A DNA stretch of 64,000 nucleotides from Amoebophrya sp. A120 (GCA_905178155.1 CAJINV010000002.1:8265224-8329223), one strand, 5' to 3'. Numbered from the stretch's first letter, positions 45,601-64,000 are shown. The notes: generated by a model from the letters alone, not told the origin. Program-made: numbers and translations.

Positions 45601-47834
45601 ATTACTTCGTTTCATCATCTAGTACTTTCAACCTGTTGCGTCTTCAAGTTGAATGACAAAAATCTGCTATACTACACATCAATCAGGTGTCGTCTTCTGC
45701 CACGAAAGAGGCCCAGCACGCAATATTTACTAGGATGGACTCCGACAACAATGGCTACCTCTGCTTCGGCGAGTTCATAGATTGCATGCTGACGCTGACG
45801 AAAAAAGCCCAGCAATACAACATCGTGAAACAGGCGGCTGCCGTATCACAGTACACAACTTCCCCGCCCGCCCCTCATTTATAGGTATGCATCAAGGTGC
45901 AGCTAAGAAATCCTGGTTTGGATGCGTTTTCCTGCCTGTAGGTGCATGTTCACATGTTCATCATGATCCGGAAGCCCAAACTGCACTACAACATCCGTGT
46001 GTGAGCTTGATATTCATAAATTCGTGCGCCGTTCGGGACGTGGTTTTTGTTGCTAGAAATGCCAATAAATCATGAGGGAGAGCGGGCGTTGCGCACTCTC
46101 ATACGCGGGGACCCTTCCCCTCGGGCAACCTGGGGTCGGCTCCTTCCCCATGGGCGCGCCGGGCAACACGTTTGGCATAAACGTTATGACCGACAATAGT
46201 AGCGCGAATACCAGTGACGTGGGGGATCTGGACAACATGAGCGTAGATGGTGGGGGTGGGAACAAATCCGACGCCGGAAGTATCCCTTGTAAAACAGTGC
46301 CGCACGTACTAGAAATTGCATTTATTCATTTTCGGAAAGAAAATATGGAATTTAGATTTTTCGTCCATTTTTTAGGACGATTCTAAAGAGCAAATAAAAG
46401 GAAAGCAGATCTGTCTTGCATAGCTGCAATTGGTACGAGTGCGATACTTTTGCAGATGATAGGAAGCTCGGAGAGCGATGACAAGTCCGACGATGGGGAG
46501 GATGTATCATTCTTGAAATGCTTCATTTGTCACGTAAATGAGCGGCAGAGCTTTTCTGTGAAATGAATAATTAAATGACTTTCCCAGCACTGTTGATGCA
46601 AATAAAATCACTCATCCAAAAATCAGGAGGATATTCCGGAAGAATTAGCTCACCTCTCTCCGGAGCAGCAGCAGAGAAGAATCAAAATAAAAGCCGCATG
46701 GATGTTATGCATGATATGTCTCCTCCTGGGTCTGGGTCTGGGAACGCCTCATGCGAAGTTGTGGATGCAGATCGTAGAATTAAAAAATCTCTAGCCACGA
46801 CGCATGAAAAGTTGAAGTTTTCGTGTTCATCTCATTCTCACCGAAGATCGCGCTCGGCCAGGCGACGTTGTTCCAAGTTTTGCAATCTTCCAGACCACCG
46901 GGACGACATATTTGCAATGCATAGATGTGCTGCGTCGGGACAATATTCGTCGTCGCGTTTTCGGACCCAATGGTAAGTGCAACTTTCTCACTTTTGTGCG
47001 GAGAAGATCTACACTCAAAAAGTGTCCTGCTCGAAGCAGTAAAAAGAACAACTCGCTGGCCTCCTCCAAGTTTAATACTTGACAGCCAATATCCTGTACA
47101 GCCAATATCTCTACGCGGTTGTACCACTTTCTCAACGAAAATAAAAAATTCAAAATCACCAAGGTCGACGTCTTCAACGAGCTTGCCAAGCGGTCCGGCG
47201 TGAATCCCTTTTTCGTGTCCTTCATTCTCTCCCTATCAAATGCAAAAATGTCTGGGTCTGGAAGGATCCGAACTTGTGATGCGCATTTTAGAACACAGAA
47301 AAATCTCTCATGCATAGTTAGCAAAAGCTGTCGCTGTCCACCTTCTGTCACGAAAATGGGGGATTTCTCATGCGGGTTCGGCATTGCGGAAGCTTCTCGA
47401 AACCTGTGATGCTAGAGCTCTCATGCCAGACCTTCTGCGTCATGCAAAGACAGCATGACTCTTCCAGACCCAGACATTTTTACATGTGATACTCCCCGCT
47501 CGTGTCCAACGCCTCCGAGCTCGTGGCCGCCTACAACTACGCGAAAAAGAAGACGCTCCGGTCCGCCACGATTTCCCTGTCCACCCTCGAGGGCGCCGCC
47601 TGCATGAACAACACCTTCTGTTTGGGGTGTTTTCTCTTCGTGCTCTACTTTTCCCATTTGCGGTGGGAGTTCACCTGTGAAATTGCGACCATGGTTATCG
47701 CAGAGGTGCTGGTGGGGTACGTAGCCTACACACGGAAAATCCATACCATGAGGGATGCGCATTTTATCGCCATGCTGTTCCCCCTGTCGCTCGTCTTTGT
47801 CTACATTGGCACCCACGTTCTGGGTTTCAGCTAG
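42614..47834 (+). CDS. EF-hand-containing Ca2+/cation exchanger (NCL-like), 15 exons, ~647 aa
   Basis: ISDGSELLL, LPVLGAVPDG, GVGTLAGSTVMLLT, EF-hands DTNGDDKLDFDEF and DSDNNGYLCFGEF, FSDPMVDV, PLVSNASE, MNNTFCL. Exons 42614-42826, 43130-43302, 43553-43619, 43864-43929, 44175-44350, 44651-44805, 45109-45165, 45433-45500, 45687-45879, 46073-46280, 46467-46503, 46627-46705, 46929-46972, 47164-47233, 47497-47834 (sum 1944 nt). Confidence 0.9.
43303..43547 (+). mobile_element. TIR introner, family E (245 bp), DR CCCGC/CGCGC
   Basis: TATGAGAATGCACAA ... TTGTGCACTCTGATA. In-frame YKKPAGVS. Confidence 0.85.
43620..43858 (+). mobile_element. TIR introner, family C (239 bp), DR GCTGC
   Basis: TATGGCGTTCTCAAATGTTACATTCTCAACTGTTAC ... 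GTAACAGTTGAGAGTGTAACAGTTGAGAACGCCATA. Perfect DR. Confidence 0.93.
44351..44645 (+). mobile_element. TIR introner (295 bp), DR GCGAA
   Basis: TATCCTCTGTAAAAACATGCCCAC ... GTGGGAGGTTTTTATTCACCATA. Perfect DR, in-frame VEAKQVDA. Confidence 0.85.
44806..45103 (+). mobile_element. Decayed TIR introner (298 bp), DR GGAGA/CGGGA
   Basis: TATCGCAGAAAAAGAC ... GTTTTTTTCTTCGATG. In-frame EQETAKHQ. Confidence 0.68.
45166..45427 (+). mobile_element. TIR introner, family A (262 bp), DR CTACT
   Basis: Near-identical to 12575-12836. Perfect DR. Restores LRPYFRKYDTNGD. Confidence 0.95.
45880..46067 (+). mobile_element. Heavily decayed TIR-type intron (188 bp)
   Basis: TATAGGTAT ... ATGCCAATA. The DR is poor (TCATT/AATCA), but element + 5 removal joins the two open frames. 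Confidence 0.5.
46281..46461 (+). mobile_element. TIR introner, family B-like (181 bp), DR GGAAG
   Basis: TATCCCTTGTAAAACAGTGCCGCAC ... GTGCGATACTTTTGCAGATGATA. Perfect DR. Confidence 0.85.
46706..46923 (+). mobile_element. TIR introner, family A-related (218 bp), DR GATGT
   Basis: TATGCATGATATGTC..TGGGTCTGG ... CCAGACC..GACATATTTGCAATGCATA. Perfect DR, in-frame AAWMCCVGT. Confidence 0.88.
47234..47491 (+). mobile_element. TIR introner, family A (258 bp), DR CTCCC
   Basis: Family A TIRs and perfect DR. Restores FILSPLVSNASE. Confidence 0.95.
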
Positions 47835-49042
47835 GGGCCTTCTGGAACCATGGTACTGAATTAAAAACTACATCGGAACGACACGACTAAAGCCAAATCT
47901 TCTGATAGTATTCAACAAACAAAACGTATAGTAGCATCTTCAACCCCACTTCCTGGTCACTGATCTTCGTGTCAATAGTACCATCTGTCAGCACTTCTCC
48001 GTTATCTTCCCTATATCGTTATCGGAACATCAAAATATGCGAGTAGCTGTAGTTATTCAGGTGAGGTGTCGTATACCTCTCATGGCGCACCTACTTGCAA
48101 TGTGAATGTACTTTGAGCAACAGCAAGTACGCTGCGACAGTGGAGGAATGCCCGGGAGGTGTCTCGACGTCGCCAGCAGCACCGTTGCGTGTGTGAGTGG
48201 TACTAGTATGTTTCAACTTCGGTCAACATGCATCATTTTTTATCTTCAGGTCAATAGTATACATCTAAAACAACCTCTATCATGATTTATGCATCTTTCG
48301 CCGTGTCGGACCGAGAACAACCTTTTTGTACACCATTACGCAAGACAAGCGCGCCTGCACCTTTTTCAATGTATCATCATTGGACATAATTTTTACTTCA
48401 GCAACAATTTCATACGCATCTGATCATTTCTATTCACGCATGTAAACCACTTGGGGCGAGCTTTTCGTTTTTTGTCATAATAAATCGGTGATGACGGTGT
48501 GTGACCTCCACGCAGCACATGCACACCATGTACAATTGTCAGTTTTTCCGGGGCGGCGCACGTCAAAATCAAAGGAAACATTTCATCGCAGTGGCGAGAG
48601 ATTGGGGCATCCAGAAAAAACTTGTTCGCCCTTTGGTAAAAATGGTAGGTTGACGACAGTTGAAAAATTCGTTTTTTTTTGAAATAGATCTTCGCAGACG
48701 AAACCAAGATTGATAGATGCTCCATAGCGCTGTTGGAAACAAAATCGTTGATGTTGAAGTCGGAAGTCGTAGCAATGCGTATTTGTTCCCGTCGCGTGAG
48801 ATATGATAGTAAAGAAGATCAAGTGACGAGGTAAGAAGTAAGTGAGTAGAAGATGATGTAGAGCTAAACAGCAAATTGCGTTTAGTGAGTTTTTCAGTAA
48901 ACAGGTGATAGCCGACGTTTTTATGGTTTCAGCTTAGTTTTCGCTTTTGATTATAATCGACCTGACGGTGACGGCACACACATAAATTACGCTTTATTGC
49001 AAGCGCAGTGAACACACCCTTTCTTTCTTTCTTGACAGAAAC

Positions 49043-52000
49043 ATGCTCTTCACTCCTTCCAATTCCGGTGTCGAGGTGGCCGCGAGTATTGCAAAGTCCT
49101 CGTCTGCAAGCCACGCAGCACCGCGCTTGGTCGCGTTTCGCAACGCCCGGGTGCTGACGTGCAGAGCGAGGAGTTATTTGGACGCGCCGGTGGACACAGA
49201 GGACGGAGATGACGGTGAAAAAGGAAATGCAAAACACGAGGACGAAAACGAGGCGTTGCTGCACTACAGTGGCTTCATTGTGGACCTGAACGACAATGGA
49301 CGCATTGTGGAAATGATACCTGCATCTTCCGGTGCGAAAGTATCAGAATCCTTGTCGTCACCGTCGGACTGTACCGCCAATGAAAAGTCGCGTGTGGAAG
49401 AAGTCCTCCGCGTCGAAAAGGAGATCGACCTTGAGAACAAGATCGTCCTGCCCGGGCTCTGGGACAGCCACTGTCACGCGTACAGCCTGGCGCACCAGCA
49501 GAAGGTCGCGAACTTGCGAAACTGCGGCGGCATTGAAACCTTCCAGCAAAGACTCCAGGAGAAGTACGACGCCGACCCCGTGGCCGTGCGGAAACGGTTT
49601 CTGGAAGGCTCCGGGTGGGACGAAGCAGACCTGGGAAACCAGTTGCCGAACCGCTACGAGCTGGACAAAATTACCACCGAGTACCCGATTATTTGCTGGC
49701 GCCGGTGCTGGCACATCGTGGTGTGCAATTCGAAGGCGCTGGAAATCGCCGGCATCTCCGCGGACACCTATCTGGATCGGAAGGACATCGATAGGTTCGG
49801 GGGAAAAAACGAAGAGCCGACGGGCATACTCCGCGAAAATGCCACGGAGTTGCTGTCCGACATTTTGTATGCATAGTTGCAAAATTTAAATTATCGTAGT
49901 AGAGACAAATTTTTGCATTAGAAAATTTTCATCAGAAAGACAAAGTGAACGAATTGAATTTGTGCTGCTGATTCAGGTGACAAATGCAAAATCAATCATG
50001 TACTATCGCAAAAATTGCATAATCCTACTACGACATCACTTTTGCAGGGTATATCTTGTCGAAGGAGGACGCCTTCGAGGAGAAAGTGAAGTTGTTGTCC
50101 AATGTCTTGCACGAGCTGCCGAAAGCGGGAATAACTGGGATTCAGTCAAACGATACGACGTTGCTCGGACAGGTGTCGGACGCCTGGCAGGTCTACAATG
50201 CCATCGAGAACCGCTTTGACAAGGGGGGTCCACCAGCTCCACGACCCGGAGTAGATTCTCGTCGTGTTAGGGAAGTAGAAGATGAAAATTTGTCAAGTCA
50301 AATTGCATCGAAAAATCACGGTCGTGTTGAAGCTGCAGCAAGGAGTACATCATCTTCACTGCCGATCCGTGTCCACTGGGTGAGCTTTTGGGATACTCTG
50401 CACCCTACTGGAAAAATAAAGGCGGGCGCAGAAGGAGCAGAGTGCTCTTTGACGACGACGTCAAGCCTATCACGACAAGCGAAAGACCACGAAGTTGCAC
50501 ATCAATCAGGTGGTCGGCTTCCTGTAAGACCGTCCCAAGAACTACCATATAAAAGCCCCCTTTTCCTGTGGAACAAGCGAACCAAGATTGTCCTCGACGG
50601 CTCTCTCGGGGCCGGTACTGCCGCGCTGCTCGCACCCTATGCGGACGATGAGAAAAAGAAGAACCGCGGGCTGTTGTCCGTCACGGAGCAGGAGCTGGAG
50701 GATGCACTGGAACGCTGCGCCGCGAACGACATGACACTCGAAGCCCACTCCATCGGCGACCGCGCGTTTGATTTGATCCTCACACTGTTGGAGAAAAAAA
50801 GCAAAGCCGTTCCGTCGAAGTGGCTTGACCGGTTGGTCATTACGCATTGTCAGATCGTAAACCAAGATCTGATCGCCCGCATGAAGCGGCTAATCAACTT
50901 CAACAGAATAATTACGTGCGGCGCGACGACCTCCAGCACATCCACTCTATCGTGTCAGACGCGAAGTGGATCCTCCGTGGAAGCTGGGTGTAGTTCTGGT
51001 GAAACTTCTCTGGCGGGCAGCACTTTGGAGAGCAGGGAAACTACAACAGCGTCGTCCGTCTTCTCCGCCATCGCAGACAAATCGTTCTCTGCTACAGGCG
51101 CGCCGATCACTGAAAGCACTGCTGCAGCAGGAAATGACGTAAAAATCCAAGCGCAGCCAGCGGACGCCGCTTGTTCCGTTGATATCAGTGAACAGAGTCA
51201 CCTATCAGCATCAACATCAAATCGCTGTACAAGGAATCGAACAATCTGTATTCAAGAAGAAACGTGTTTACAGTTATACAGTATTTTTTCGTGCTAAATT
51301 CAGCAGCAGAAAAAAAACCATTTGCCGGGAGTGACAGTTGAAGCTCGTAATGCAGAGATCATATAGGATAACATCGAGGGAAAAGGAAAGCACGCATGAA
51401 AAACGAAGGAGCGCGCAGGCATTCGCAGCCTCGGGCTTCGCGACGCTGTGTGTCTTGCGTGTCCGGCATAGAAGATCATTATGTGTTGCGTATGAATACA
51501 CTGTAGCACTTTTTTCCTGTCACACTCTTCGCGTCGATCCAGCCTCAGTTCACGAACTCCGACCTCCCGATCATTGAGAAGAAGCTCGGCGCAGAGCGCA
51601 CAAAGACCGCGTACGTGTGGAAGCAGCTGAAAGATAAGGCGCGAATGACCATCATCGGCGGATCCGATGCCCCGGTGGAGCGGATGAGCTCTCTGTGCGG
51701 CATGAGGGATCTGATGCAGAACTGCTTGCACGAACAGGAGTCCTTCTCGCTCACGGACACTGTGGCGGCCTACACGCGGGATCCCGCCTTCGCGGCGTTT
51801 CGGGAAAACGACCTCGGCCGGCTGGCGGTTGGGTTTCTGGCAGACTTCGTGGTTCTGGATGTTTTGGATGTAGCAGATGAAGAACGTGTACGTGCGCAAG
51901 AAAAAAACCTCCGCCATCCACGTCGCCTTCCAGACTCTCCCTCCGAGTTGGAAGCAGTCTTCGCTCAGAAACTTTCCCGCGTTCCGGGTTCCGTTCGGGT

Positions 52001-52199
52001 GTACGCGACGTACGTCGGCGGCATGCTCCGCTATGAGCGGAAAAATGAAGACTTCGATTCTGGTGCCAGCTGTCAGGAAGTCGGTGCAGAGGAAGATGCA
52101 AAAAAAGCTGTAGATAATAACGTTTTACAGTTCTGTTTGGATAGCAACGCACCGGGGCGCGGTGGCTTGCCGATTTGGCGTTGCCCGTGCTGCATGTGA
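49043..52199 (+). CDS. Amidohydrolase 3 family (YtcJ-like) metal-dependent hydrolase, 3 exons
   Basis: PGLWDSHCH, EPTGILRE, KIVLDGSLG, AHSIGDRA, ITHCQ, ASIQPQF, GSDAP, GFLADFVVLD. Intron 1 is 49868-50058. Intron 2 is non-canonical with ambiguous ends (~51203-51269 to ~51510). Confidence 0.9.
49868..50053 (+). mobile_element. Decayed TIR introner, family B-like (186 bp), DR TTTTG/TCTTG
   Basis: TATGCATAGTTGCAAAA ... TTTTGCAGGGTATA. In-frame DILSKEDAF. Confidence 0.78.
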
Positions 52200-53160
52200 A
52201 GACGAAGGTCGCGGCTATGCTAGTACTAGGTATCATCGTGAAAAGTTAGATTTAAAATACTTACATACATGCTTCTTTTCTATGAGCAATTCGTTTTCCG
52301 TTTCCAATTTTGATAGCCTAGTGGGATGTTGACCCAGAACCTACTCATTTTTCCCCTGTGCTTGTTTTCTGATGCGGCTGACGCAGACATAGTGGAACAA
52401 CAACAAGCGCAAGCTCATGACTTCTACTGTGCGAGAAAAACTAGGTGTTGTTCTCCCTCAGTGGCCGCTATATCACGCTGCTGTGTTCCACTTCCACTCA
52501 CGAGGTACTCCTGCCACGAATTACTGCATTGGATTACAGCAAGCGTAAGTGAGGACACACAATTTGTCTGAAGACAGAAGACTGCGGTCCTGCAAAAAGA
52601 ACATTTCATGTGCTAATTAGTAATAAAGTGAAGTGGATAGAAGTCAAGGTGTAAAAAAATATACAACAAAGTCGAGAGAGAGTGAACAGGCACGACCAAT
52701 AAAGCAGAAGATGCTAGTACCTAGAAACATATTGCAGACGGAATATGGTGAGCCTGAATATTTCTTGGTGTTGATCTTCTTGTAATATTGATACTTTCTG
52801 GATGAACTTTACAACTTGTGTTGAGATCAAAATTTCATGGGCATTACACACATGCTCACGAAAATTTTTTGTTTTTCTGCGTCATGACGCGGCGAGCCCG
52901 GCTCTGTTTCGTCCAGTTGAGTTAACTTGAAAAAAACAAAAAAAACATAGAAAGAAAGCTGTGACAGTAAGTTTTTAAGAATCAAATTGTAATTGACTAA
53001 GCGACATTTTATTTTATGTAATTTTTTTCAATTTATGAACGGTTCGATAATCATCTGACTTTTAATCGTCTTATCTTCATTTGGATCTCGCAGCAATTTT
53101 GCTTGCGCCTCGCCGTTTCGCTCTTCTCCTACCTTTTCTTCCGACACGACTCCACCGAGC

Positions 53161-56100
53161 ATGCCTTCCGCTAGTAAGGGCCGTGCTGCTGCCACTCCGT
53201 CCCGTTCGCGCGGACGTTCGGTAGGAACCCCTGTCAAGAAGCCAAGGGCTCAGAAGCAGTCGCCAGCAGTCGCAAAGAACAAGAGTAATAAGAAACAACG
53301 GGCAGCGTCAGCGACGACACCCCGGAACAAGATTCCCAGTCGGGAATCTGCGGAGCTGTATGGTTTGTGGAAGGGCATAGAAGAAAAGAAGTCCGACATC
53401 GCGGACGGAATACTCGATGTGGGCAAACGGGATTTCAAGGAGGCGCAGAGGTGCTTTTCTTTTTTTTCCAACCCGTTTCTCGGCGGTGTGGCTGATGAAT
53501 ACGACAAAGCGCAAAGAGAAAAAGACGCAGCTCCTGCCTTAGACTGTTGCAGCAAGAAAATAAACGACACTTGCATGATGATGAATGAAGACGGGAGGTC
53601 TAGAAGTCTACATCATGTATCTTCGGCTCCAACTCAAATGACAAACTCAAACTTTCTTTAGACAAACATAAAAGTTGTCCACCCAACCCCGATGTTTATA
53701 TCAAAATCAGGTTCTGCATTCTGTTCAAGCGGATAGCCGAAGAAGGTCTGAGCAGTGTGACGAAAGCCAAAAAAAGCGGGAAGGCTTCAGATCTTCATTT
53801 GAAATGGTCGCGGATGAAGGACAACTCTGCGGACGAACAGATCGAAGCGGAGGAAGACCAAGACGAGGATGGCGGTATTAACTACAGTGATAGCGAACGT
53901 CAAGCCAAGCACGGCAAAAAGATGAACAAGGTGGACCGAGCTCTGAAGCCGATCCGGGAGGTTGGCAACTATGCCTGGAACACCGTGATGGACGAAATTG
54001 TAATCGTCGAGAAAGAGAAGGTTTTGCAACTGGGGAACGCCATCCCAGACACGTCCTTTGCGGCGGCGTGCCTTCGCATGTTGGACGCGGCGGGCAGTGA
54101 ATTACTCGAAAAGATCAGAGCATTTCTTGATGAACTACAAACCAAAACCGATAATAGAGCAGGAGCTTCTGCTTCTTCAACCAGTGTCGTGCAGAACAAG
54201 CGGAATGTCAAGAATCAAGAAGAACATGAGCACGACTTGATGAATAAGCACAAAAACCATGGGAAGAAGACTCCCAAGAGGGACCACGAAGACCTCCTCT
54301 CCTCCCCTGCCACGCGGAAAATGTTGCTCATTGCAGAAATACGGGAGCAAGCGGATTCCGCCGCCGCAGCAGTTCGAAAAATCCAGGACGCCCTGATGAA
54401 TGGCGACGAGGACAACAATAACGACAGTGGAGACTTTTCGATTGCCGAATTGGAGGGCGTCCGGGATAAATTCGGCGCGATTTTGCTGCAAATCCAGAAG
54501 CACAGCCGCACAGCAAGCACGAAAGCCGCAAAATCGTCTACAGCCCACGACCAGCAACCACTTTCTGTGATGGAAGCCGCAGCTCCTGGAGCTTCTTCTT
54601 CTTCTGCTTCCGCGGCCTTTTCTTTGAGTACGAAGCAAAAACTTAAGCAAGACCAGCAGGAGGAGGCGGACGACACCAGCAAACGTGGTCGCTCCTTCTC
54701 CCGCAAAAGAAGCCGAAACGTCTTCGAAGATGAATCTGAAACGAAGATGAACAACGAGACGACCATGAGTCAAAAACAAGCTGCAGGCACTAGTCGACCG
54801 CGACTGAATAGTAAAGAAACGGTACTGTCCAACACCACCACCGAGTTTTTACCAAACAGCAGAAGTCAGTCAAAGCATGCAGCTTGCTCTGGTGCGGCGG
54901 GCACGTCATTGTCAACTAATCGCGTTATTTCGCAGCTGCAGAAAAACTTGAGTATCACATCTGCGACCGCAAACCACAATAATCCTTACAATCCGCTGGG
55001 GAAGCCGCCGCGCATACCGACCGCGAATAAATCGGCCTCAACTTCTATTGCAGGAAAACCGATCATGATGTTGAACGACTTTTCGAAGCTCGAGCTCAAC
55101 GAAACGCTTCTTCCGACTCTGGAGCAGGAGGAGGAGCTAAACATGCTGAAGAGCAAGAAAACCTTGTACGCCAAGGATGAACAAAGCGATATGTTGAAAA
55201 AGGATGATAATTCGCTTTCGCAAGAGATGAATTTATTCTATTCGAGAGACGAAAAGAAGAAGAAGAAGAACTATGAAATCGAAAGCAACCACGAAGACGA
55301 CACAAGCAGACGGGAAGTAGATCTGAAGAAGCAAAAGCAGATTATGACTCCCCTGTCGCAGTCCGAGCTTGAGAAGGAAATTTTTGGCGACGTCGACGAT
55401 CTTCTGAGCAACTATAGCAAGGCGAAAGCGGAGGACAAAGATTCCTCGTCGTTTGCTGACGATCGAGAAGATCATCTTCGTGTGGAGACTCCTTTTGATG
55501 AAATTGATTCCGACAGCAAGTCGTCGGTACAAGAAGAAAATATTCAAGAAGGTCAACTAATGACGCTGAACAAAACTACTACATCAAGTGCAGCAGCATC
55601 GTCGATGCAGCAGCACCACCAACTACCCGGTCGCTTGCAGGTGGTCCATGAAGAAAATGAAGCAGAACTGCAGTCGAACAGTGATGAAAATCTTCAACCA
55701 AGCTCGAGCAACATCCTGATCGAGAACGAGAAGAACGAAAGTGCAGCTGCTGTCGTGTCTACCACCGCACCAGAAAATAAACGGGCCGAGGAGAAAAAAA
55801 AGAAGAAGCCAGCAGAAGAATTATACGAAAGCAGATTGATGCTCCATCTCGCGCATCAAGGAAATACGAGTACTAAAATGCGTAAGGCCCCCGCAGGACC
55901 ACTTGACGCAGAGGCGGAAGGGACCGAGGACCAGGAGGTCTTTGACTCGGAGGACGAGGGTGATGCCGGCAGCAGTGCGGACGACGGCGAGGACAAGAAG
56001 AAACCCATCCTCGATAAGGGTACCATGGCGAAAAACAAATCGTACGACTACGCGAAGGCGATCAGACGGGCGAAACAGGAGCAGACGACCCGACGCTCCT

Positions 56101-59100
56101 TCAGCAAGAAGATTGAAGCCGCGATCCGCGAAGCGGCCGGGCCGGACTACGAGAACTTTACGGCGACCAAGGCGCTGGTGAAAGAGTTGACGCAAAAAGA
56201 GCGCTATCCTCTGCAGCAAAAGTATAATCGCACTCGTGGTATGTAAGTTCTGGTAGTAACCTTCCCAAGCCACCATGCGTGACAAATCTAATTTTCCAAA
56301 CGTGAAGATCTATGAAATGACGACAAATTTGTTACCTGTTTGAGAAGAGTTTAAATTTGTTATTGTACTGCATGGCATTGATCAGATACTAGAACTAGTG
56401 CGATTATAGCGATACTTTTACGATGCATAAGCGTGTGACATTCTTGCGTGAGGTGGTTCGCGAAATCGAGTACAAGCGAACGTCATCCCGGCACGCGCAG
56501 TTCCATTCCGACAACTTCGAGAACAGCTCCTCCGCCGACACCGGCAAAAACTGTTTTTTCACACTGGGGCTGGTAAACTGCCGTCGGGCCGGGCTGTTTG
56601 GCGCGGACGCCAAGAAGGAGGGTGCGCTTATCGAAATGAAATTTGTTACCGTGTTCTAATATCTTCATCTTGACGTACTACAAATGGAATCTTCAATGCA
56701 GCGCAAAACTTCGTTTCAACTTCAAGATGAACCAGCTTTGTGCAGTATGACAAAAAGTAGAAGTCCGCCTCTCATGGTGTTCTCCTGGGAGGTTGACAGC
56801 AAACAAATTTGTAACTACATGGCTTTTGTCCAGAATTCAACATGCACGGTAAGAAATTCGTGTTGCATAGCGGCATTCCTGATGCTACTGGTCAACGCTA
56901 TTACCTCGCTGCACGCGGATGCGGAGAAAAAACCGGGAAAGTGGATCGCGGAGGAAGATTCTGACTTCGAAATCGACGACAACGAAGAGGGGACTTGGTG
57001 GTGGACCAGCATCACTGCGAACAAAAATTCCCTTACCTCCCTGCACGTCGACGGTGGCAACCTCGGGCCATCGTTGCTGTTTGCCGTTGGCGACTTCATC
57101 GGGGGCGAGACGCTCACCCTGCGAAGAGACTTCCACCCCGACGACCACTACTCCAAAACATTATGGGTGGAAGTGACGAACGAAAAATGCCGGAAGGCGG
57201 CGAAAAAATATGGGAGCTACTGCCGAACGGAGCCGGTCGACCGCATGGCGAAGAAGCAGAGCCCGCGGAAGTACGACCACAAGTATGGGGCCCCGTTCTT
57301 GTTGCACGCCGGATTTCAAGAAGAAAAGGCGGGGCGCATGTTTCTCCCCATGGAGCGCACGCCGGTCAAGGACATGGTCGCAGAATACGATGGCCGCATC
57401 CCGTATCTACATGATAAAACTTCCGACACGCAGACGGGTTGCGCCCTTAGTAAAAGTAGAAACTCCAGCACAGCAGGGTCGTATTTCTGTGCTGCCGTAC
57501 TATTACGGTTTCGGTTACCAGTGCAGGGATTCAGTTTCTTTAGGTTGCTTGGTAGGATCTATTTGTCATGCCTTTTCTAGTACGTCTACGTGTCAGAGAA
57601 AGTTGTGTTGCATATTTCGCACTGCACCGCGCCGTTCTTCCGCAGCGACTTCATTTCTTCCGGAAAGATCGACAAATCTCCTCTATCAACTGCATCCGTG
57701 TCTGGGTCTGGAACTGGATGAACAGCATTCGACGTCGTAGGTTCGTGTCTGCAAACATTGCATGTCCGGCAAAGGCTGCGCAGCTTTCTCGTTTTCCATG
57801 TGCAAAAACCAAAACGCAGCTTGTAGTTTAACGCGCACGCGCGCAGATATGCACCATTAGTGAACAGCACCAAAAAAAGTTTTTACGTTTTGCTGCTGCT
57901 CTTGACGAAAGCATCAGAATCAGCAACATTTGATGTGCATCAGTGAGTAAATTTTGGCTTCCAGGCCCAGGCACTTTTGTTACAGTGCATATTCCTTGAA
58001 GGGGATCGATGTGACCCGATGGATGAGCATATCCGAGATTGAAAAGGCGTACGAGTACTGCACCAAAATGCACACTATGCGATGCAAACGTGTCTGGGTC
58101 TAGAAAATTTGCATTGTAATCATGCTTCGTCGGGAGCACGCAAAAGTCTCTAATTGTGTTGCATGACCGCCAAAGTGTTTTCGCTTATTTGTGCAACGAG
58201 AATATGAGTAAGCGTTTTTGTCACATAAGACAGGCATGAGAAATGCATGAGCCTTTCTCCTTTACGAAACCTGCAGTGCTTTTCTTGTGCGCAGAATTTC
58301 ACCAGAGGACCCATCTTGCAGTGTGATGCAGAGGACGCATGACACTCTTTCAGACCAAGACATTTTTGCTTTGCATAGACACAGGCGACGCGGCGGCAGA
58401 TTCCGGTGCGGACCGGTATGTTTTTGTGCTGTACGGCCATTCGATGTGGAACCACAAGGGTCTCGGGACGGCTAAACTGCTACGCATTGCAAAATTATCG
58501 CAGTGGGATAATAAACAGCTGTATTCTGAAATGACGCTTGAGTTTTGCAACAGAAAAAAAGAAAAAATGTCATGTCTGGTGTCGTATCGCGTTTTCTTTT
58601 TCATACAGAGGATCTTCTGCATTTTACTTCTAGTTCATCTAGGTGTAGCTACTCAAGAAAACGCAAAGAGCAGGTCATCTTTAATTCAAATCCTTATCCT
58701 ACGAGTGCGATATTTTTGAAAAGGATAGCAGCTCCAAAGCTATGGCTTCGACCGTTGCGGCGAGAAGTGGGGACCTGCGCAGCGATGGTGGATGAGGCAG
58801 TTGGCGGAAAAGAGAAAACTGGCGGTGGCGTATAAGGGGGTGAAGATGTACTTGAAGCAGCAGCAGACCAGCGACTCCCAGGCCTGGGTGAAGAAGCAAA
58901 TCGCAGACAGGTACACAGATGAATCCCGCGTGACCATCGAAATGATCTGTGAGGAGCTTGGGCTATTAGAGTTGTGCCGGAAGGCGCAGGCCGCGGCGAT
59001 TCGCCAGGGCACACCGTTCAGATGGAAAGAGGTCAAGGAAAACACGAAGCCGGGCTCGCTGGGAAAGGCGGGGACCTTGAAAACGCCTCTAGAAATGTTT

Positions 59101-61246
59101 GATGACTACATCCGCGGAATCCACCAGGCGTTACGGGTTTGCGAAGGCCGGCATCTGCCGACGTTTTGTGACGTCTTTTCTGAAAAGTTTCGCGAGACCT
59201 TTGGGATCAGTAGTGTGATGGAGTACGCGGAGCATTTTGGCTGCTTTCGAGACCAGCAACGGAAAAAACTGATCGACCAGAGTCTCCGCCTCCCGCATGC
59301 AGATAGAAAAAAAGTGAAGGAGTTCCGCGGCTTACACAACCACAAATTGCTATTAGACGTCTGCTACGCATTACAAGAAGGGCACTGCGCTCTCACAAGT
59401 ACTAGCAACTTTTGCATGGCTTGCACTTTACTGCGACTTCGGGAATTCGTCATGTGTGTCTTTTGTGAATTAGTACGAGCGCAATGCCCCTTTTGCGTAG
59501 CATATCGACGATTCGTTTGACTCGGAAACTAACAGCGCAAAGGACGACTTCAAGGCCGTTGTCCCATGGCGATGGGACGGGCAGCACTGGTTTTGGCCGC
59601 GCAGCAAGGACGTCCTCGGGGAATTGTTGCCAGTGCAAAACTTGTTGAGGTACTGCATCTTCATCAAGGACAGCAGAATTCATGATTTGGGCCAGGGGGT
59701 GCACGTTCCAAGATTACCTTCCTGGAATACGACTTGTCAATATCATGTGGGGAAGTGGCCCGATTTGGAGGAACTGCTCGGCTGCCCAGAGGACAAACTA
59801 TTGCGGAAGGACTCGAAAGAGGAACTGGAGCAGCGCAGTCGCCGGATCGCCAATCGTATCACGTGCAAAAGTGAAACACTAGCAGGCCGAGCCAGCTCGT
59901 AGATGCATCCTGTTTTGCATGATAACAGCGGCAATTTGATCGCTGCCCCCTCCTTCTGTAGCCCAGTGCTATCTGCTTCCGCATTAGAAGTTGCGCCTCG
60001 CTTCTTGCGGATAAATATTATACATCAGCATACTCAACATACTCTAGAGCAATCCAATTCCTTTGTAGGAGTACTGTGCGAGTAGTACAACAACTTTTGC
60101 AATGCATGAATCGCAACAAGATTTTCGAGGGAGCAGACCATGAGGCTGTAGATGGTAGATCGAAGGGAGCGGATAAGAAAAAGCGGAACCCCGCTTCCTC
60201 CTCCTCCAGAAGTAAAAACTCCACGAGTGCCGCAGGGTGTGAAACCAAGCTGACCTCCGACCGTTCAAACAGCGCAACTGCTGGCGTCCGAAAATTCGAG
60301 AAGAAATACGATCGCTAGGCATCGCAAAAGTAAGTATTCTACTCGTACTGATGAAAATTGCCGCACCGCCTGACAGACCTGCTTCTTTATTGACCTGAAT
60401 TATGCACAAGCAGAAGCACGATGATCAATAGCATTTTCGTTCTGGAACAGTTACGTGGACATTGGTAAACGCAAGTGCCAATGTAACTATTGCGAGTACG
60501 ATACTTTTGCAATGCATAATCAAAAACGGGAAACAACCAGTTTGAACTCGTGGATAAATGTCTGTAGGCGGCCGTTTGCAGAGTATGTCTCAGACGAAAC
60601 TGCGCGGAAGATCATGTTGGACGGCATGAAAGGTAAATACCGGTTGGATGACGAACGCAGATACATAATCAACTCCTTGAACCAGGAAAAAGCCGAGAAA
60701 GAGGACAAAGAGGGCCCATTGGGAGGAACAACGAGGACGATTCACTACAAGCATGTCGCAAATGTAGCATCGCGCAAAGAGGTGTTGAAGTTGCTCGGCG
60801 GAGACCCCAAGGTGGCAGAGACGAACTGGGAGGGTATGCATTGCGTGCAAAAGTAACGCACCAGAGTGCAGGTTGGTTGCGTAATATTTTCTACTTCAGA
60901 ATATTGAAAGTTTTTCGCGAAGAGAATTGGCATGGATTTCTTTGTGAAAATTCAGGTAGCAGAAGCAGCTTCAATAGAGCTACGACAAGCAGACCACCGC
61001 ATTGTTCATGCATGATTGTAATTCTTTCTCTTCCGTATCCCTGTGTGATAAGTACTTTTGCAATGCATAGAAGGCACCATTAATGCAATCTTCGAGAAGT
61101 GGTGGAGGAACAACAAGAAATCTCAATCGTCCCACGTCCTCGACAGCACCAAGGCCAAACGAGCTGGCGCTGGAAGCAAGATGAATAAAGGTCGAAGCCC
61201 TTCCGTCACGATCCGCGGCAAATCCGTTACTAAGAAGAAGAAGTAA
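53161..61246 (+). CDS. ~1,803-aa protein with central TET/JBP-like 2OG-Fe(II) dioxygenase domain, 12 exons
   Basis: Exons 53161-53450, 53711-56204, 56435-56628, 56875-57403, 57620-57683, 57997-58075, 58383-58480, 58733-59364, 59510-59856, 60114-60315, 60524-60834, 61075-61246 (sum 5412 nt, no internal stop). Motifs FTLGLV, TSITANKN..LHVDGGNLGPS..GDFIGGE, YDGRIPHCTAPF, DRYVFVLY. Confidence 0.78.
56205..56429 (+). mobile_element. TIR introner, family B (225 bp), DR AGCGC/AGCGT
   Basis: TATCCTCTGCAGCAAAAGTATAATCGCAC ... GTGCGATTATAGCGATACTTTTACGATGCATA. In-frame KERVTFLR. Confidence 0.85.
56629..56869 (+). mobile_element. TIR introner (241 bp), DR GCGCT/GCGGC
   Basis: TATCGAAATGAAATTTGTTACCGTG ... 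CACGGTAAGAAATTCGTGTTGCATA. In-frame join. Confidence 0.82.
57404..57614 (+). mobile_element. Decayed TIR introner (211 bp), DR TCCCG/TTTCG
   Basis: TATCTACATGATAAAACTTCCGACACGCAGACG ... CGTCTACGTGTCAGAGAAAGTTGTGTTGCATA. Restores GRIPHCTAPF. Confidence 0.82.
57684..57991 (+). mobile_element. Decayed family A introner (308 bp), DR TCCTC/TTCCT
   Basis: TATCAACTGCATCCGTGTCTGGGTCTGGAA ... TTCCAGGCCCAGGCACTTTTGTTACAGTGCATA. In-frame KSPLKG. Confidence 0.82.
58076..58377 (+). mobile_element. Decayed family A introner (302 bp), DR CACAC/GACAC
   Basis: TATGCGATGCAAACGTGTCTGGGTCTAG ... CAGACCAAGACATTTTTGCTTTGCATA. In-frame KMHTGDA. Confidence 0.87.
58481..58727 (+). mobile_element. TIR introner, family B (247 bp), DR ACTGC/GCAGC
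   Basis: TACGCATTGCAAAATTATCGCAGT ... AGTGCGATATTTTTGAAAAGGATA. In-frame KLLQSYGF. Confidence 0.8.
59365..59504 (+). mobile_element. TIR introner (140 bp), DR TCTGC/TCGAC
   Basis: TACGCATTACAAGAAGGGCACTGCGCTC ... GAGCGCAATGCCCCTTTTGCGTAGCATA. In-frame join. Confidence 0.8.
59857..60108 (+). mobile_element. TIR introner, family B (252 bp), DR AATCG
   Basis: TATCACGTGCAAAAGT ... ACTTTTGCAATGCATG. Perfect DR, in-frame IANRNKIF. Confidence 0.85.
60316..60518 (+). mobile_element. TIR introner, family B (203 bp), DR ATCGC/ATCAA
   Basis: TAGGCATCGCAAAAGTA ... TACTTTTGCAATGCATA. In-frame join. Confidence 0.83.
60835..61069 (+). mobile_element. TIR introner, family B (235 bp), DR GAGGG/GAAGG
   Basis: TATGCATTGCGTGCAAAAGTA ... 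TACTTTTGCAATGCATA. In-frame NWEGTINA. Confidence 0.87.
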
Positions 61247-61870
61247 AGGCTCTTCAACATGAAAAAATTCGTTTTTTTTTGAATTTTGAAAAGTGAAAAA
61301 AAAAGATGAATAAAACTTCCACGACCGAGCACGGGGGTGCACCGGCGGGCCTGTTCCCGGCAGCCAGGCGAACAGCGTTTCTGTTGCAGTGCGTATTCGT
61401 AGTCGATGGTTGTTCTGGCAGGATGTTCCTCTCTTAAAGAAAACAGGTCGTGTGTCTGTGGTGTCGAGCTCCCCAAGATGATCAGATCTAGATCTCGCTT
61501 CGACTGCCTGCGGCAAGTGCTTTCCAACCTCTGCAAAAGGATCGCGTTTTCTCCTTTCTACTTGTGACGACTTACTCAAGTACATAGTAAGTACATGCTC
61601 TTATTCTGGTGCTGATTTCGTTCTTGGTTGTTCTTTTCAATGATCTGAGAGCAAGAAATCTCTTTTTTCAACAAGTGATCAAAAGAATTGCGTAGTCGGA
61701 GAAGTACACTGAAGTAGAAGTTTCTTTTTCTGCTGATCCTAGTAGACCATCTTCTGTAGTTGCGAATCAGGATCAGCAGTCCTTCCGTGGCTTCGAAGGG
61801 ACCTTTACTGATTGTGAGGCTCGGCGCCGCCTGTAGTGAAGATATACGCATAGCTTGTCGCAGTAGAAAA

Positions 61871-64000
61871 ATGATAAGTTTGGATCACTCGCCGGCGGCT
61901 CCTCGCGGGCCGAATTTACAACGAGAACTTCTAGCAGGCGCTGGAAGCTTGGAGTTCCCACGACCATCGCCGACACAAAGGAACTCTCGGCCCGCAGCTG
62001 CAGCATCGGCTGCCATGCAGCTGACAGCAACGAGGACGCCATCCAAAGCATTTCTGCTGACTTTTCTCGTGTCAGCGCTGGCGGGTCCGGCATGGGAATG
62101 GCAGGGGTGTCACGCAGCCGGAACCGCATCGGCTCCCCAAGAACGCGAAGACAGCTTCAGCGACGAAGATGAGGGCTTCGTGTTCGTTCCAGAGGCCGTC
62201 TCTGAAGCGACGACCGTGAGTAAGACTACAGACGTTCTGGGACCCACCGGCGCCGGGGACAGTGGAAGGTAATTTCAAGTTCGTAAGTGAGAAGTACTCA
62301 CGCAAATTTCAACTGTTTTTTATGTGTAGTTGACAGTATCAAGACCTCTGGCTCCGGCTTCCTAGTCAGCGTAAAAGAGGCAAGTCGTAATGGAATTCGG
62401 ATGACAATAATTTCTTTTGTTGTCGTTGTTCTGATGAACTTACCGTTGAAGTAGAAATTTGTCCTTACCCACTGAATTTCAGTTCCATCACCCCATTGAA
62501 TTGCTCCTCTCCGGGAGGTGCATCGATCGGCACGACATGTGCGCCGTCTACGCCTGCTTCCGGGACAGCATACAACAACCTGGATAATATCAAGCATCAG
62601 ACCACTCCTGTTGCGGACGACGACCAGGATGAGGATCCGCTCAAGGACGTCTTTTACATCTACGAGGAACCTGTCACGACACCTACCTCGTCGCGCGATC
62701 AATTACATGCAAGTAGGACCGCGAGCAGCGACACGACCCCGATGGATGTTGATACGAATGAAGCAGCTGGTGAAAGTGGAACGATGGAACAACCGACTCA
62801 TCAATCAGTTGCTACAAGTAGCGCCCAAGATGAACAAACTCCTCCTGTCAACAAGTACTACACCCGTGCCCATCGCCTTGGTGGAGAAAGTGACGACCAG
62901 TTCTTTGCGAGCGAGATGAAGACTACAGGCGGCAGTTTATGGGACTCTCAATTGTTACATTCTTAACTGTTACATGAATTTGTGATGCAAGAGGGGCAAA
63001 AGCGAAAGGAAGGACCTTGCGCATATTGCATGACAGACTTGGCACAGATTCTCGGCCTGTTTGGCCTTCTGGGAATTTGTCACGCGAAGCAGCTTGATGG
63101 TGTCGGTAGTCAAGGCACTTTTGCATGAGAAATCATGTATTAACAGTTGAGAATGTAACGCTTGAGAATGCCATACAGTTCCGATCAGGACGAGGAGGAG
63201 TGGCAGCTGTTGATGTGCGAGTCCGAGGTTGCCGAAACGCTTGCAATATCAACTGTAAAAATGTCTGGGTCTGGAAGAATTCATGTTTGTCATGCTTGTC
63301 TGCCATGACTCTGAAATCTGTCATGCGCGTTACCCAAGAGCTCCGTTTTTCTGTGATGCAGAAGCGCATTTTGTCATGCAGAATAGGCAACGCCTAGGAG
63401 CTCAGAAACTTGTCATGCTGAGCCAGCATTTGCAGCCTCATCATGAGACGCCACCCAGCATCACAAGTTTCCAGACCCAGACATTTTTACTTTTGATATG
63501 CAACCGAAGCGGAGCAGGAAGCGAGGCAGACGGCAGCCGACTTGTGGAAGGACTTCACGCGGGCGGTTCTGCGGCAGACGTACCGGAAAGTTTTGGAGAA
63601 AACCATCCAAGACGCGCAGGCCCGGCACTTCCAAGAACACGGAAAGACGGAACCGCCGACCGCTCTGGACGTGGCGGTCGCGAAAAAAATTGTAAAAAGC
63701 GCGCTCCTGAAAGGAGCGGCCCTTGCGTCGAGGTCTTCGGGTGGAGAGGACCACGGTCGTGCCCAAAGCGCTCCTGATGAAGATGCGGAAGATTATTTCT
63801 CCCTGCTCTCTTCGGGTGCTGGCACGAAACTTAACAAGCCGCTCCGCTACTTCGACAAAGTTATGGCCGCGAGGAGTCGTAGTTCGTCTTCCTCGGCGGA
63901 GGAGGACCACGATGAACACGGCGGAGATTTTCTTCTCAAGCAGAAATGGAGTCTGGCGCCGTTGGGTCTGAACCTGAGCGAAGATCCAGTATTGGAGAGA
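61871..64000 (+). CDS. Orphan secreted-type protein, 3'-truncated by the window edge
   Basis: Exons 61871 (or 62015)-62268, 62483-62937, 63181-63246, 63504-64000+. One GT-AG intron and two TIR introns. Signal-like FLLTFLVSALAG. Frame stays open to the window end. Confidence 0.7.
62938..63175 (+). mobile_element. TIR introner, family C (238 bp), DR CAGTT
   Basis: TATGGGACTCTCAATTGTTACATTCTTAACTGTTA ... TAACAGTTGAGAATGTAACGCTTGAGAATGCCATA. Perfect DR. Confidence 0.92.
63247..63498 (+). mobile_element. TIR introner, family A (252 bp), DR TGCAA
   Basis: TATCAACTGTAAAAATGTCTGGGTCTGGAA ... TTCCAGACCCAGACATTTTTACTTTTGATA. Perfect DR, in-frame ETLATEAEQ. Confidence 0.94.

What the first reader, a model, noticed from the sequence alone, without database searches (positions are those of the whole stretch)
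53161..61246. Hidden ~1,800-aa TET/JBP-like dioxygenase whose catalytic residues are split across non-canonical introns
Seen: after removing 10 TIR introns and one GT-AG intron, a single 5412-nt ORF appears. It has HxD (HVD, 57044-57052), a distal His (57620-57622) and an Arg in DRYVFVLY (58414-58416) on three different exons. A basic/acidic disordered N-terminus, an uncharacterised ~550-aa C-terminal region and a KKKK tail flank the domain. Established: HxD...H...R is the 2OG-Fe(II) signature, TET/JBP enzymes oxidise 5mC or thymine in DNA, and dinoflagellate DNA is rich in 5-hydroxymethyluracil. Inference: a nuclear nucleic-acid-modifying enzyme with novel accessory domains, likely fragmented in automated annotations. 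The subfamily call rests on motif resemblance only.
Basis: partly seen in the sequence, partly recalled or inferred. Interest (0 to 1): 0.8.

Follow-up and report, generated by a model that had tools for sequence, protein, structure and literature searches.

The report
TET-like dioxygenase of a parasitic dinoflagellate
A parasitic marine dinoflagellate splices eleven introns out of this gene to give a 1,803-residue protein that is already in the public database whole but unnamed, and it is likely an enzyme that oxidises methylated bases in DNA, predicted to prefer methylcytosine as animal TET enzymes do.

Summary
The gene is real as described. RNA-type contigs join 12 exons over 11 introns into a 5,412-nt ORF of 1,803 aa, with HxD, His and Arg at the stated places on exons 4, 5 and 7. 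It is not hidden: the identical protein is in NCBI as an unnamed Amoebophrya A120 product, and the introns are the published A120 introners.

The TET/JBP call now has support, but indirect. No family library hits the protein. Its compact relatives match Tet_JBP weakly (15 of 30), their profile finds NgTET1 first in PDB (E 4e-6), and a homologue's model ranks TET2 and NgTET1 first, tied with AlkB by Z.

New: it belongs to an Amoebophrya-type clade with two large inserts in the beta-helix and a TET2-like Asn/Tyr/His base pocket (His in 5 of 5 complete members, 1 of 26 compact relatives). TET/JBP enzymes of core dinoflagellates were published in 2024.

Side finding: 15 of 15 introner introns fit one fixed cut register, which the genome paper called variable.

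Verdict: new variant of a known kind.

The parts
52987..61295 (+). Spliced transcript, 12 exons, 5,635 nt (another contig starts at 52949)
53161..61246 (+). Coding sequence, 5,412 nt, 1,803 aa; identical to NCBI CAD7935144.1 (P0003)
53161..56030 (+). aa 1-870: low-complexity basic/acidic/Ser-rich region, several K/R clusters; no homologue among the proteins fetched
53451..53710 (+). Intron 1, canonical GT-AG, 260 nt, no inverted repeat
56151..58478 (+). aa about 911-1249 (exons 2-7): TET/JBP-type double-stranded beta-helix domain with N-terminal helices and two inserts
56204..56433 (+). Intron 2, introner (element 56205-56429)
56489..56491 (+). R947, conserved Arg upstream of the beta-helix; position compatible with TET2 R1261 (inferred from alignment range only)
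56628..56873 (+). Intron 3, introner (element 56629-56869); pins the cut register uniquely
57044..57061 (+). H1050-x-D1052 iron ligands and N1055 (column of NgTET1 D234 / TET2 N1387)
57113..57385 (+). Insert 1, between the HxD half and the distal His (His-to-His 120 aa against 45-60 in compact relatives)
57403..57618 (+). Intron 4, introner (element 57404-57614)
57620..57622 (+). H1170, distal iron ligand
57641..58410 (+). Insert 2, between distal His and the 2OG Arg (58 aa against 9-12 in compact relatives); spans introns 5 and 6
57683..57995 (+). Intron 5, introner (element 57684-57991); pins the register uniquely
58075..58381 (+). Intron 6, introner (element 58076-58377)
58414..58440 (+). 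R1228 (2OG), Y1234 and H1236 (columns of NgTET1 R289, F295, H297; TET2 R1896, Y1902, H1904)
58480..58731 (+). Intron 7, introner (element 58481-58727)
58732..60832 (+). aa 1250-1746: C-terminal region of no known family; conserved in the AT5.2 orthologue (to aa 1746) and in P0006 (to about aa 1394); mostly helical in the homologue's model
59364..59508 (+). Intron 8, introner (element 59365-59504)
59856..60112 (+). Intron 9, introner (element 59857-60108), perfect 5-bp target duplication
60315..60522 (+). Intron 10, introner (element 60316-60518); pins the register uniquely
60834..61073 (+). Intron 11, introner (element 60835-61069) that also reads GT-AG
61232..61243 (+). C-terminal four-lysine tail, possible nuclear signal (inferred)

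Best explanation
This is a spliced Amoebophrya gene for a 1,803-aa protein that is likely an iron/2-oxoglutarate dioxygenase of the TET/JBP type, predicted to oxidise the 5-methyl group of a DNA pyrimidine and more likely 5-methylcytosine than thymine. Shown: the transcript, the ORF, the conserved residues and the clade. Inferred from TET2 and NgTET1 chemistry: H1050, D1052 and H1170 hold Fe(II); R1228 (with R947) holds 2-oxoglutarate; a flipped base stacks on Y1234 and is read by N1055 (N4) and H1236 (N3); O2 is split to give succinate, CO2 and the hydroxymethyl base. The two inserts loop out of the beta-helix; they, the helical C-terminal region and the basic tail would supply DNA/chromatin binding and nuclear import (untested). 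The ten introners are later transposon insertions that splicing removes cleanly and have no bearing on catalysis. Odds: TET/JBP-type fold and chemistry about 0.8; the full statement with 5mC in DNA 0.45.
For: Exon 4 alone retrieves 16 other proteins at E<=1e-3 among 1.84 billion; all but P0017 carry the HxD strand. A profile of the compact ones gave 28 hits, 7 with precomputed PF12851; 15 of 30 compact members match Tet_JBP at E<=0.01, 5 of 30 match 2OG-FeII_Oxy_3. The compact profile ranks NgTET1 first in PDB (E 3.9e-6), CcTET 0.011, PiuC 0.018 and scores P0003 at 49.7 bits over the HxD strand. A model of homologue P0006 (25% identical to P0003 over aa 911-1394; core blocks pLDDT 75-92) gives TET2 first by Foldseek (E 2.5e-4), NgTET1 first by VIA (Z 10.1, rmsd 3.4, 167 aligned; Z 10.0 among 48,161 chains) and phage JBP1/TET proteins first among viral models (E 1.8e-5). 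Atlas features: 0.94 to Fe2OG clusters, 0.88 to a cluster with 27% Tet_JBP. All four catalytic residues are kept in 5 of 5 complete long members, and so is R-x5-Y-x-H; these columns are NgTET1 R289/F295/H297 and D234 in the printed alignment (numbering offset 6), which PMC4678852 and PMC11804724 name as the base pocket, Asn/Tyr/His in TET2.
Against: P0003 itself hits no Pfam, PHROG, NCBIfam or PDB sequence; the long-clade profile finds nothing in PDB; all Tet_JBP matches of relatives shown are below the gathering score, so the link is transitive. The window's own domain was not folded; the model is of a homologue and its alignment was dominated by 34 compact relatives. NgTET1 (Z 10.1) and AlkB (Z 9.8) are tied. 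Asn at His+5 is in all 34 compact relatives too, so only the His is clade-specific. The triad does not fix substrate: NgTET1 D234N oxidises thymine better, and Drosophila TET, with the mammalian residues, is reported to act on 6mA (PMC11804724). The only tested dinoflagellate members make 5hmU (PMC11572971). I found no report of 5mC in Amoebophrya, could not look for a methyltransferase (no genome held), and the window shows no CpG depletion (observed/expected 1.05).
Confidence: 0.45

Rival explanations
1. Same fold, but a JBP-like thymine hydroxylase that makes 5hmU in the parasite's DNA.
For: CryTJ1 and AmpTJ1 of core dinoflagellates make 5hmU, and purified CryTJ1 no 5hmC (PMC11572971 section 7); Asn at the D234 position can favour thymine in NgTET1; thymine needs no methyltransferase, and the window has no CpG depletion.
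Against: Asn/Tyr/His is the set of mammalian TETs, and changing N1387 or H1904 is what turns TET2 towards thymine; no passage I saw reports 5hmU in Amoebophrya; relation to CryTJ1 could not be tested (supplement unreadable).
Confidence: 0.27
2. A nucleic-acid oxygenase on another substrate: m5C in RNA, 6mA, or an AlkB-like N-demethylation.
For: AlkB, ALKBH1, NMAD-1 and FTO tie with NgTET1 by Z; TET-family enzymes have reported side or main activity on 6mA and RNA m5C.
Against: No AlkB chain appears in any profile search of PDB; the last strand has Tyr and His where AlkB has its second Arg (AlkB motif recalled, not from a call).
Confidence: 0.15
3. A 2OG oxygenase for a protein or small molecule (PiuC/prolyl-hydroxylase type), or a dead scaffold.
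For: PiuC (E 0.018) and EGLN1 (E 0.11) appear weakly in profile searches; Z 8.3; 5 of 30 relatives touch 2OG-FeII_Oxy_3.
Against: NgTET1 beats them by three orders of magnitude in E; top 9 VIA rows in the wide search are all nucleic-acid enzymes; catalytic and pocket residues are invariant across a clade of about 25-40% identity, which argues against a dead enzyme.
Confidence: 0.13

Closest known systems
NgTET1 (Naegleria Tet-like dioxygenase; PDB 4LT5, 5CG8, 5CG9)
   Same: Best PDB match by profile and by VIA on the homologue model; same spacing H, D+2, base reader +5 and R, aromatic +6, His +8.
   Different: NgTET1 is compact with Asp at the base-reader position; this protein has Asn, two large inserts, an 870-aa low-complexity N-terminus and about 570 aa after the domain; identity 15-16%.
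Human TET2 (PDB 5D9Y, 4NM6)
   Same: Top Foldseek hit; Asn/Tyr/His pocket with identical spacing to H1382/D1384/N1387 and R1896/Y1902/H1904 (numbers); beta-helix split by an insert between HxD and the distal His (TET2's split described); long low-complexity N-terminus.
   Different: A second insert between His and Arg (58 aa against 15 by TET2 numbering); no Pfam match for Cys-rich or CXXC parts; the sequence relatives are compact algal/viral-type proteins, so the likeness to TET2 may be convergent (inference).
Dinoflagellate CryTJ1 / AmpTJ1 (Li et al. 2024, PMC11572971)
   Same: TET/JBP homologues with HxD and H...R in dinoflagellates; shows the family is already known in the lineage.
   Different: From core dinoflagellates, found with PF12851, CryTJ1 about 59.5 kDa with HRD and thymine activity; this protein has HVD, escapes PF12851 and is 1,803 aa. 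Sequences not available to compare; Amoebophrya is not named in the main text, the supplement tree was not seen.
Compact TET/JBP-like proteins of marine protists and viruses (unnamed; P0007-P0051)
   Same: Nearest sequence relatives; invariant N-x7-H-x-D-x-x-N strand, distal His and Arg.
   Different: 100-350 aa, no inserts, His at Arg+8 in only 1 of 26; the six long proteins separate from them with UFBoot 100.
Amoebophrya A120 introner elements (Farhat et al. 2021, PMC7789003)
   Same: Inverted repeats starting TAT and ending in As, 3-5 nt direct repeats, about 240 nt; the ten elements here are 140-308 nt with that consensus.
   Different: The paper calls splice sites variable relative to the hairpin (Fig. 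3 and S23 legends); here one fixed register fits 15 of 15.

Membership tests
2OG-Fe(II) dioxygenase superfamily | HxD...H iron triad and 2OG-binding Arg | tested here: met
   H1050, D1052, H1170, R1228; kept in 5 of 5 complete long members and in the matching columns of compact relatives
2OG-Fe(II) dioxygenase superfamily | Double-stranded beta-helix fold | tested here: met
   On homologue P0006 only: VIA Z 10.1, rmsd 3.4, 167 aligned; the window's own domain was not folded
TET/JBP (Pfam PF12851) | Match to the Tet_JBP profile above the gathering score | tested here: not met
   P0003 and P0004 give no Tet_JBP hit at E<=10; relatives match below the cut-off, 7 of 28 carry it in precomputed tables
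TET/JBP (Pfam PF12851) | Nearest solved relatives are TET/JBP enzymes by sequence profile | tested here: met
   NgTET1 E 3.9e-6 and CcTET 0.011 for the compact profile; NgTET1 E 1.5e-4 for the profile that includes P0003; transitive
TET/JBP (Pfam PF12851) | Closer in fold to TET/JBP than to AlkB | tested here: inconclusive
   TET2 first by Foldseek; NgTET1 10.1 against AlkB 9.8, a tie
TET/JBP (Pfam PF12851) | Pyrimidine pocket: Asn/Asp at His+5, aromatic at Arg+6, His at Arg+8 | tested here: met
   N1055, Y1234, H1236
TET/JBP (Pfam PF12851) | Oxidises 5mC or T in DNA | not testable with these tools
   needs an assay
Dinoflagellate 5hmU synthases (CryTJ1/AmpTJ1) | Orthology with CryTJ1/AmpTJ1 | not testable with these tools
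   sequences are in a supplement that could not be read
AlkB family | Second Arg six residues after the first on the last strand (recalled) | tested here: not met
   that position is Tyr in 5 of 5 complete members; no AlkB chain in profile searches
Amoebophrya A120 introners | TAT-start inverted repeats with 3-5 nt direct repeats at the borders | tested here: met
   27 of 30 ends start TAT; 5-bp duplication 2-5 of 5 letters alike (PMC7789003 section 11)
Amoebophrya A120 introners | Repeated elsewhere in the genome | tested here: inconclusive
   ends shared with other elements in the window and raised DNA depth at some intron ends; no genome held to count copies

The most novel reading that the evidence does not exclude
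Early-branching parasitic dinoflagellates carry their own clade of large TET-like enzymes, at least two paralogues in A120, that grew out of a compact algal/viral TET/JBP-like protein and arrived at a TET2-style split domain and Asn/Tyr/His pocket: the missing 5mC-to-5hmC oxidase of the dinoflagellate lineage, which the 2024 5hmU paper left open, in a genome overrun by introner transposons.
Probability: 0.3. Interest if true: 0.65.

Novelty: new variant of a known kind. Interest (0 to 1): 0.45.

Why it matters
Dinoflagellate DNA carries 5hmU, 5mC and 5hmC, and the 5hmC-forming enzyme is unknown (PMC11572971 discussion). A TET/JBP-type clade in Amoebophrya that profile searches miss gives a concrete candidate and a reason to measure modified bases in Syndiniales, which would help date when base oxidation arose relative to the dinokaryon. 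The side finding may matter as much: if a fixed 1-nt / 4-nt ruler from the TA ends holds genome-wide, it turns 'no splice signature' into a rule, improves gene prediction and narrows how introns are recognised in a genome where U1 was not detected. Against high interest: the protein is already annotated whole, the family is known in dinoflagellates, and substrate is unproven.

Tried and rejected
Family scans of exon pieces and whole proteins: nothing significant (Pfam; PHROGs 54; NCBIfam 55; PDB sequences 27, 78). Word-seeded search with aa 960-1260 among shorter proteins: 0 of 2,316 candidates. Viral contigs and phage records with exon 4: nothing. First fold (P0004, 2 sequences) failed, pLDDT 30, and was not searched. 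Raw-read runs X9-X11 laid 0 reads: no test. No run is on record as RNA; X3-X6 are the tool's guess, supported by intron-free contigs and zero depth in flanks. Atlas look-up of the C-terminal region did not complete, so that region has no fold or family test beyond Pfam; the fold searches barely test it. Homology of the C-terminal region between the two sub-lineages: a few shared motif columns, but not above shuffles (best real 5.8 bits, one of 200 shuffles 9.5). aa 1-870: no hit among the proteins fetched. No spliced-leader relic in the window (recalled motif). T1040 sits ten residues before H1050 as TET2 T1372 does before H1382, but the NgTET1 alignment does not place A212 there, so I do not count it. 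Transposon or viral cargo context rejected: neighbours are transporters and metabolic enzymes on the same strand. Secreted host-directed effector considered and set aside: the N-terminus is basic with no hydrophobic stretch (read from the sequence). Rows left out: P0017 (no motif) from all alignments; P0015 replaced by its cluster mate P0026; two-domain P0012/P0014 from A3 and A5-A7; 6 short rows from the tree; 4 GT-AG introns without inverted repeats from the register count. Earlier scan notes: none on this genome or sequence; the 8 of 16 word hits shown concern other genomes and did not bear on this. Two Iyer/Aravind TET/JBP papers were not held and Roy et al. 2023 was seen only as a reference.

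Full report
1. Observation. The region reads as a eukaryotic gene on the + strand. A run search found 6 runs holding half or more of the words; four guessed to be RNA hold 61-65%. Laying X3 and X6 gave the same 11 joints in both; the 12 exons sum to 5,635 nt, the exact length of the X3 contig. A DNA-type contig spans 47463-62982 without a gap. These RNA-type runs are 2 samples of 1 study, and three raw-read runs gave no reads, so there is no read-level or independent confirmation.

2. Not hidden. A search with exon 4 returned a 1,803-aa 'unnamed protein product [Amoebophrya sp. A120]', letter-identical to the spliced ORF, accession CAD7935144.1. It probably derives from the same genome project, so it is not independent evidence of expression, but it refutes 'fragmented in annotations'. 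In this genome more than 60% of introns are non-canonical, and introners with TAT-start inverted repeats are described (PMC7789003 sections 10, 11, 16).

3. Relatives. phmmer with exon 4 over 1.84 billion representatives gave 17 proteins at E<=1e-3, the query's own protein included. Five are long proteins of the same build: AT5.2 g14703 (P0004; 42% over aa 1034-1402 and 31% over 1440-1746), A25 CAD7956385 (P0005), a second A120 gene CAD7963023 (P0009), and unnamed P0006 and P0008. The rest are compact or two-domain proteins from environmental assemblies, and one is spurious. A profile of 9 compact ones gave 28 hits at E<=1e-10. In a 157-column tree of 34 of 40 rows the six long proteins separate with UFBoot 100 and split into P0003/P0004 (98) and P0005/P0009/P0008 (100), with P0006 outside both (unrooted, no known TET/JBP included, some insert columns may be misaligned).

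4. Family. P0003 matches no library directly. The compact relatives match Tet_JBP in 15 of 30 cases at E<=0.01 (best 5e-8) and 2OG-FeII_Oxy_3 in 5 of 30. Their profile finds NgTET1 at E 3.9e-6, CcTET 0.011 and PiuC 0.018 in PDB; with the long proteins included NgTET1 is still first (E 1.5e-4), next EGLN1 0.11. The same compact profile scores P0003 at 49.7 bits, over the HxD strand only, because the inserts break the match. That explains why automatic annotation left it unnamed. A model of P0006 on a 40-row alignment has a confident core (mean pLDDT 56.6 overall). Foldseek ranks TET2 first (E 2.5e-4), VIA ranks NgTET1 first but tied with AlkB (Z 10.1 and 9.8; 10.0 and 9.3 among 48,161 chains), and the viral library ranks a phage JBP1/TET protein first. 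The window's own domain was not folded: the whole protein is over the tool's length limit.

5. Active site. In alignment A6 the long proteins keep His, Asp, His and Arg, Asn at His+5, Tyr at Arg+6 and His at Arg+8 in 5 of 5 complete members (P0008 ends early). Among 34 compact rows Asn is in 34, Tyr/Phe in 26 of 26 with a residue, His at Arg+8 in 1 of 26. The printed NgTET1 alignment puts D234, R289, F295 and H297 in these columns. PMC4678852 (passages) names F295, H297 and D234 as the base pocket; PMC11804724 (passages) equates them with TET2 Y1902, H1904 and N1387, the 5mC-reading set, and also shows that these residues do not fix substrate. His-to-His spacing is 106-126 aa in the long clade against 45-60, and His-to-Arg 56-81 against 9-12: two inserts.

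6. Mechanism. Shown: gene, transcript, conserved residues, clade. Inferred: Fe(II)/2OG-dependent hydroxylation of the 5-methyl group of a flipped pyrimidine; 5mC somewhat more likely than thymine (0.45 against 0.27), other nucleic-acid substrates 0.15, other 0.13. Nuclear location rests on K/R clusters. The C-terminal 570 aa are conserved in the AT5.2 orthologue and partly in P0006 but have no known family; the N-terminal 870 aa are low-complexity with no relatives found.

7. What is known. TET/JBP homologues that make 5hmU in core dinoflagellates were described in 2024 (PMC11572971: abstract, sections 7 and 10; preprint passages). Its main text does not name Amoebophrya; its supplement, with the tree and sequences, could not be read and may bear on novelty. 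Searches for Amoebophrya with TET, methylation, dioxygenase or hydroxymethyluracil terms (listings only, plus passages of PMC11071213, PMC6313786, PMC11453091, PMC12344493, PMC12005148, PMC13229309, PMC12730594, PMC6244454) showed no description of this clade; subscription papers are not covered.

8. Intron ruler (side finding). All 10 introner introns here, and 5 of 5 in the upstream gene (joints), can be cut 1 nt before the element's 5' TA and 4 nt after its 3' TA/TG, removing the element plus exactly 5 nt. That is the only register common to all 15; three introns with decayed duplications allow no other. Five have a perfect 5-bp duplication and are uninformative on register. PMC7789003 shows a 5-bp example but calls the sites variable at 1-5 nt (legends only, figures not seen). 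Two searches and passages of PMC12130899 and PMC11282704 gave no such rule for Amoebophrya, though euglenid introns have a fixed-position stem. Limits: 15 introns, two genes, contig-level joints, rule derived from ten of them.

9. Verdict. Observation confirmed; interpretation partly supported. A new, insert-bearing, lineage-specific variant of the TET/JBP kind; it works like a TET, fails the formal PF12851 test, and has no measured substrate. Interest 0.45.

Noticed in passing
window 45161-47491 and 56204-61073: Fixed splice register for introner introns: 1 nt before the 5' TA, 4 nt after the 3' TA/TG; fits 15 of 15, unique in 3. The genome paper calls these sites variable.
   Followed up: partly
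P0009 (A120, CAD7963023.1), P0005 (A25, CAD7956385.1): A second sub-lineage of the same enzyme clade; A120 has at least two paralogues, all unnamed. No A25 orthologue of this window's gene turned up.
   Followed up: partly
window 7240-7501, 12266-12531, 12575-12836, 63247-63498: Further TA-ended elements with perfect 5-bp duplications, likely young introners; another inverted-repeat pair at 62930-63183.
   Followed up: no
P0012, P0014: Long environmental proteins with two tandem TET/JBP-like domains.
   Followed up: no
P0051: Compact TET/JBP-like domain fused to an FkbM-type methyltransferase.
   Followed up: no
window 48986-52196: Amidohydrolase_3 gene in three ORFs directly upstream, low RNA-contig depth; breaks not resolved.
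   Followed up: no
window 55793: One extra A in an A-run in contigs of X5 and X6 but not X3 or X4; would shift the frame; probably an assembly or slippage artefact.
   Followed up: no
window 9965-36073: Same-strand housekeeping neighbours: Mem_trans, ZIP, MFS, DAGAT, CS domain, fatty acid hydroxylase.
   Followed up: no
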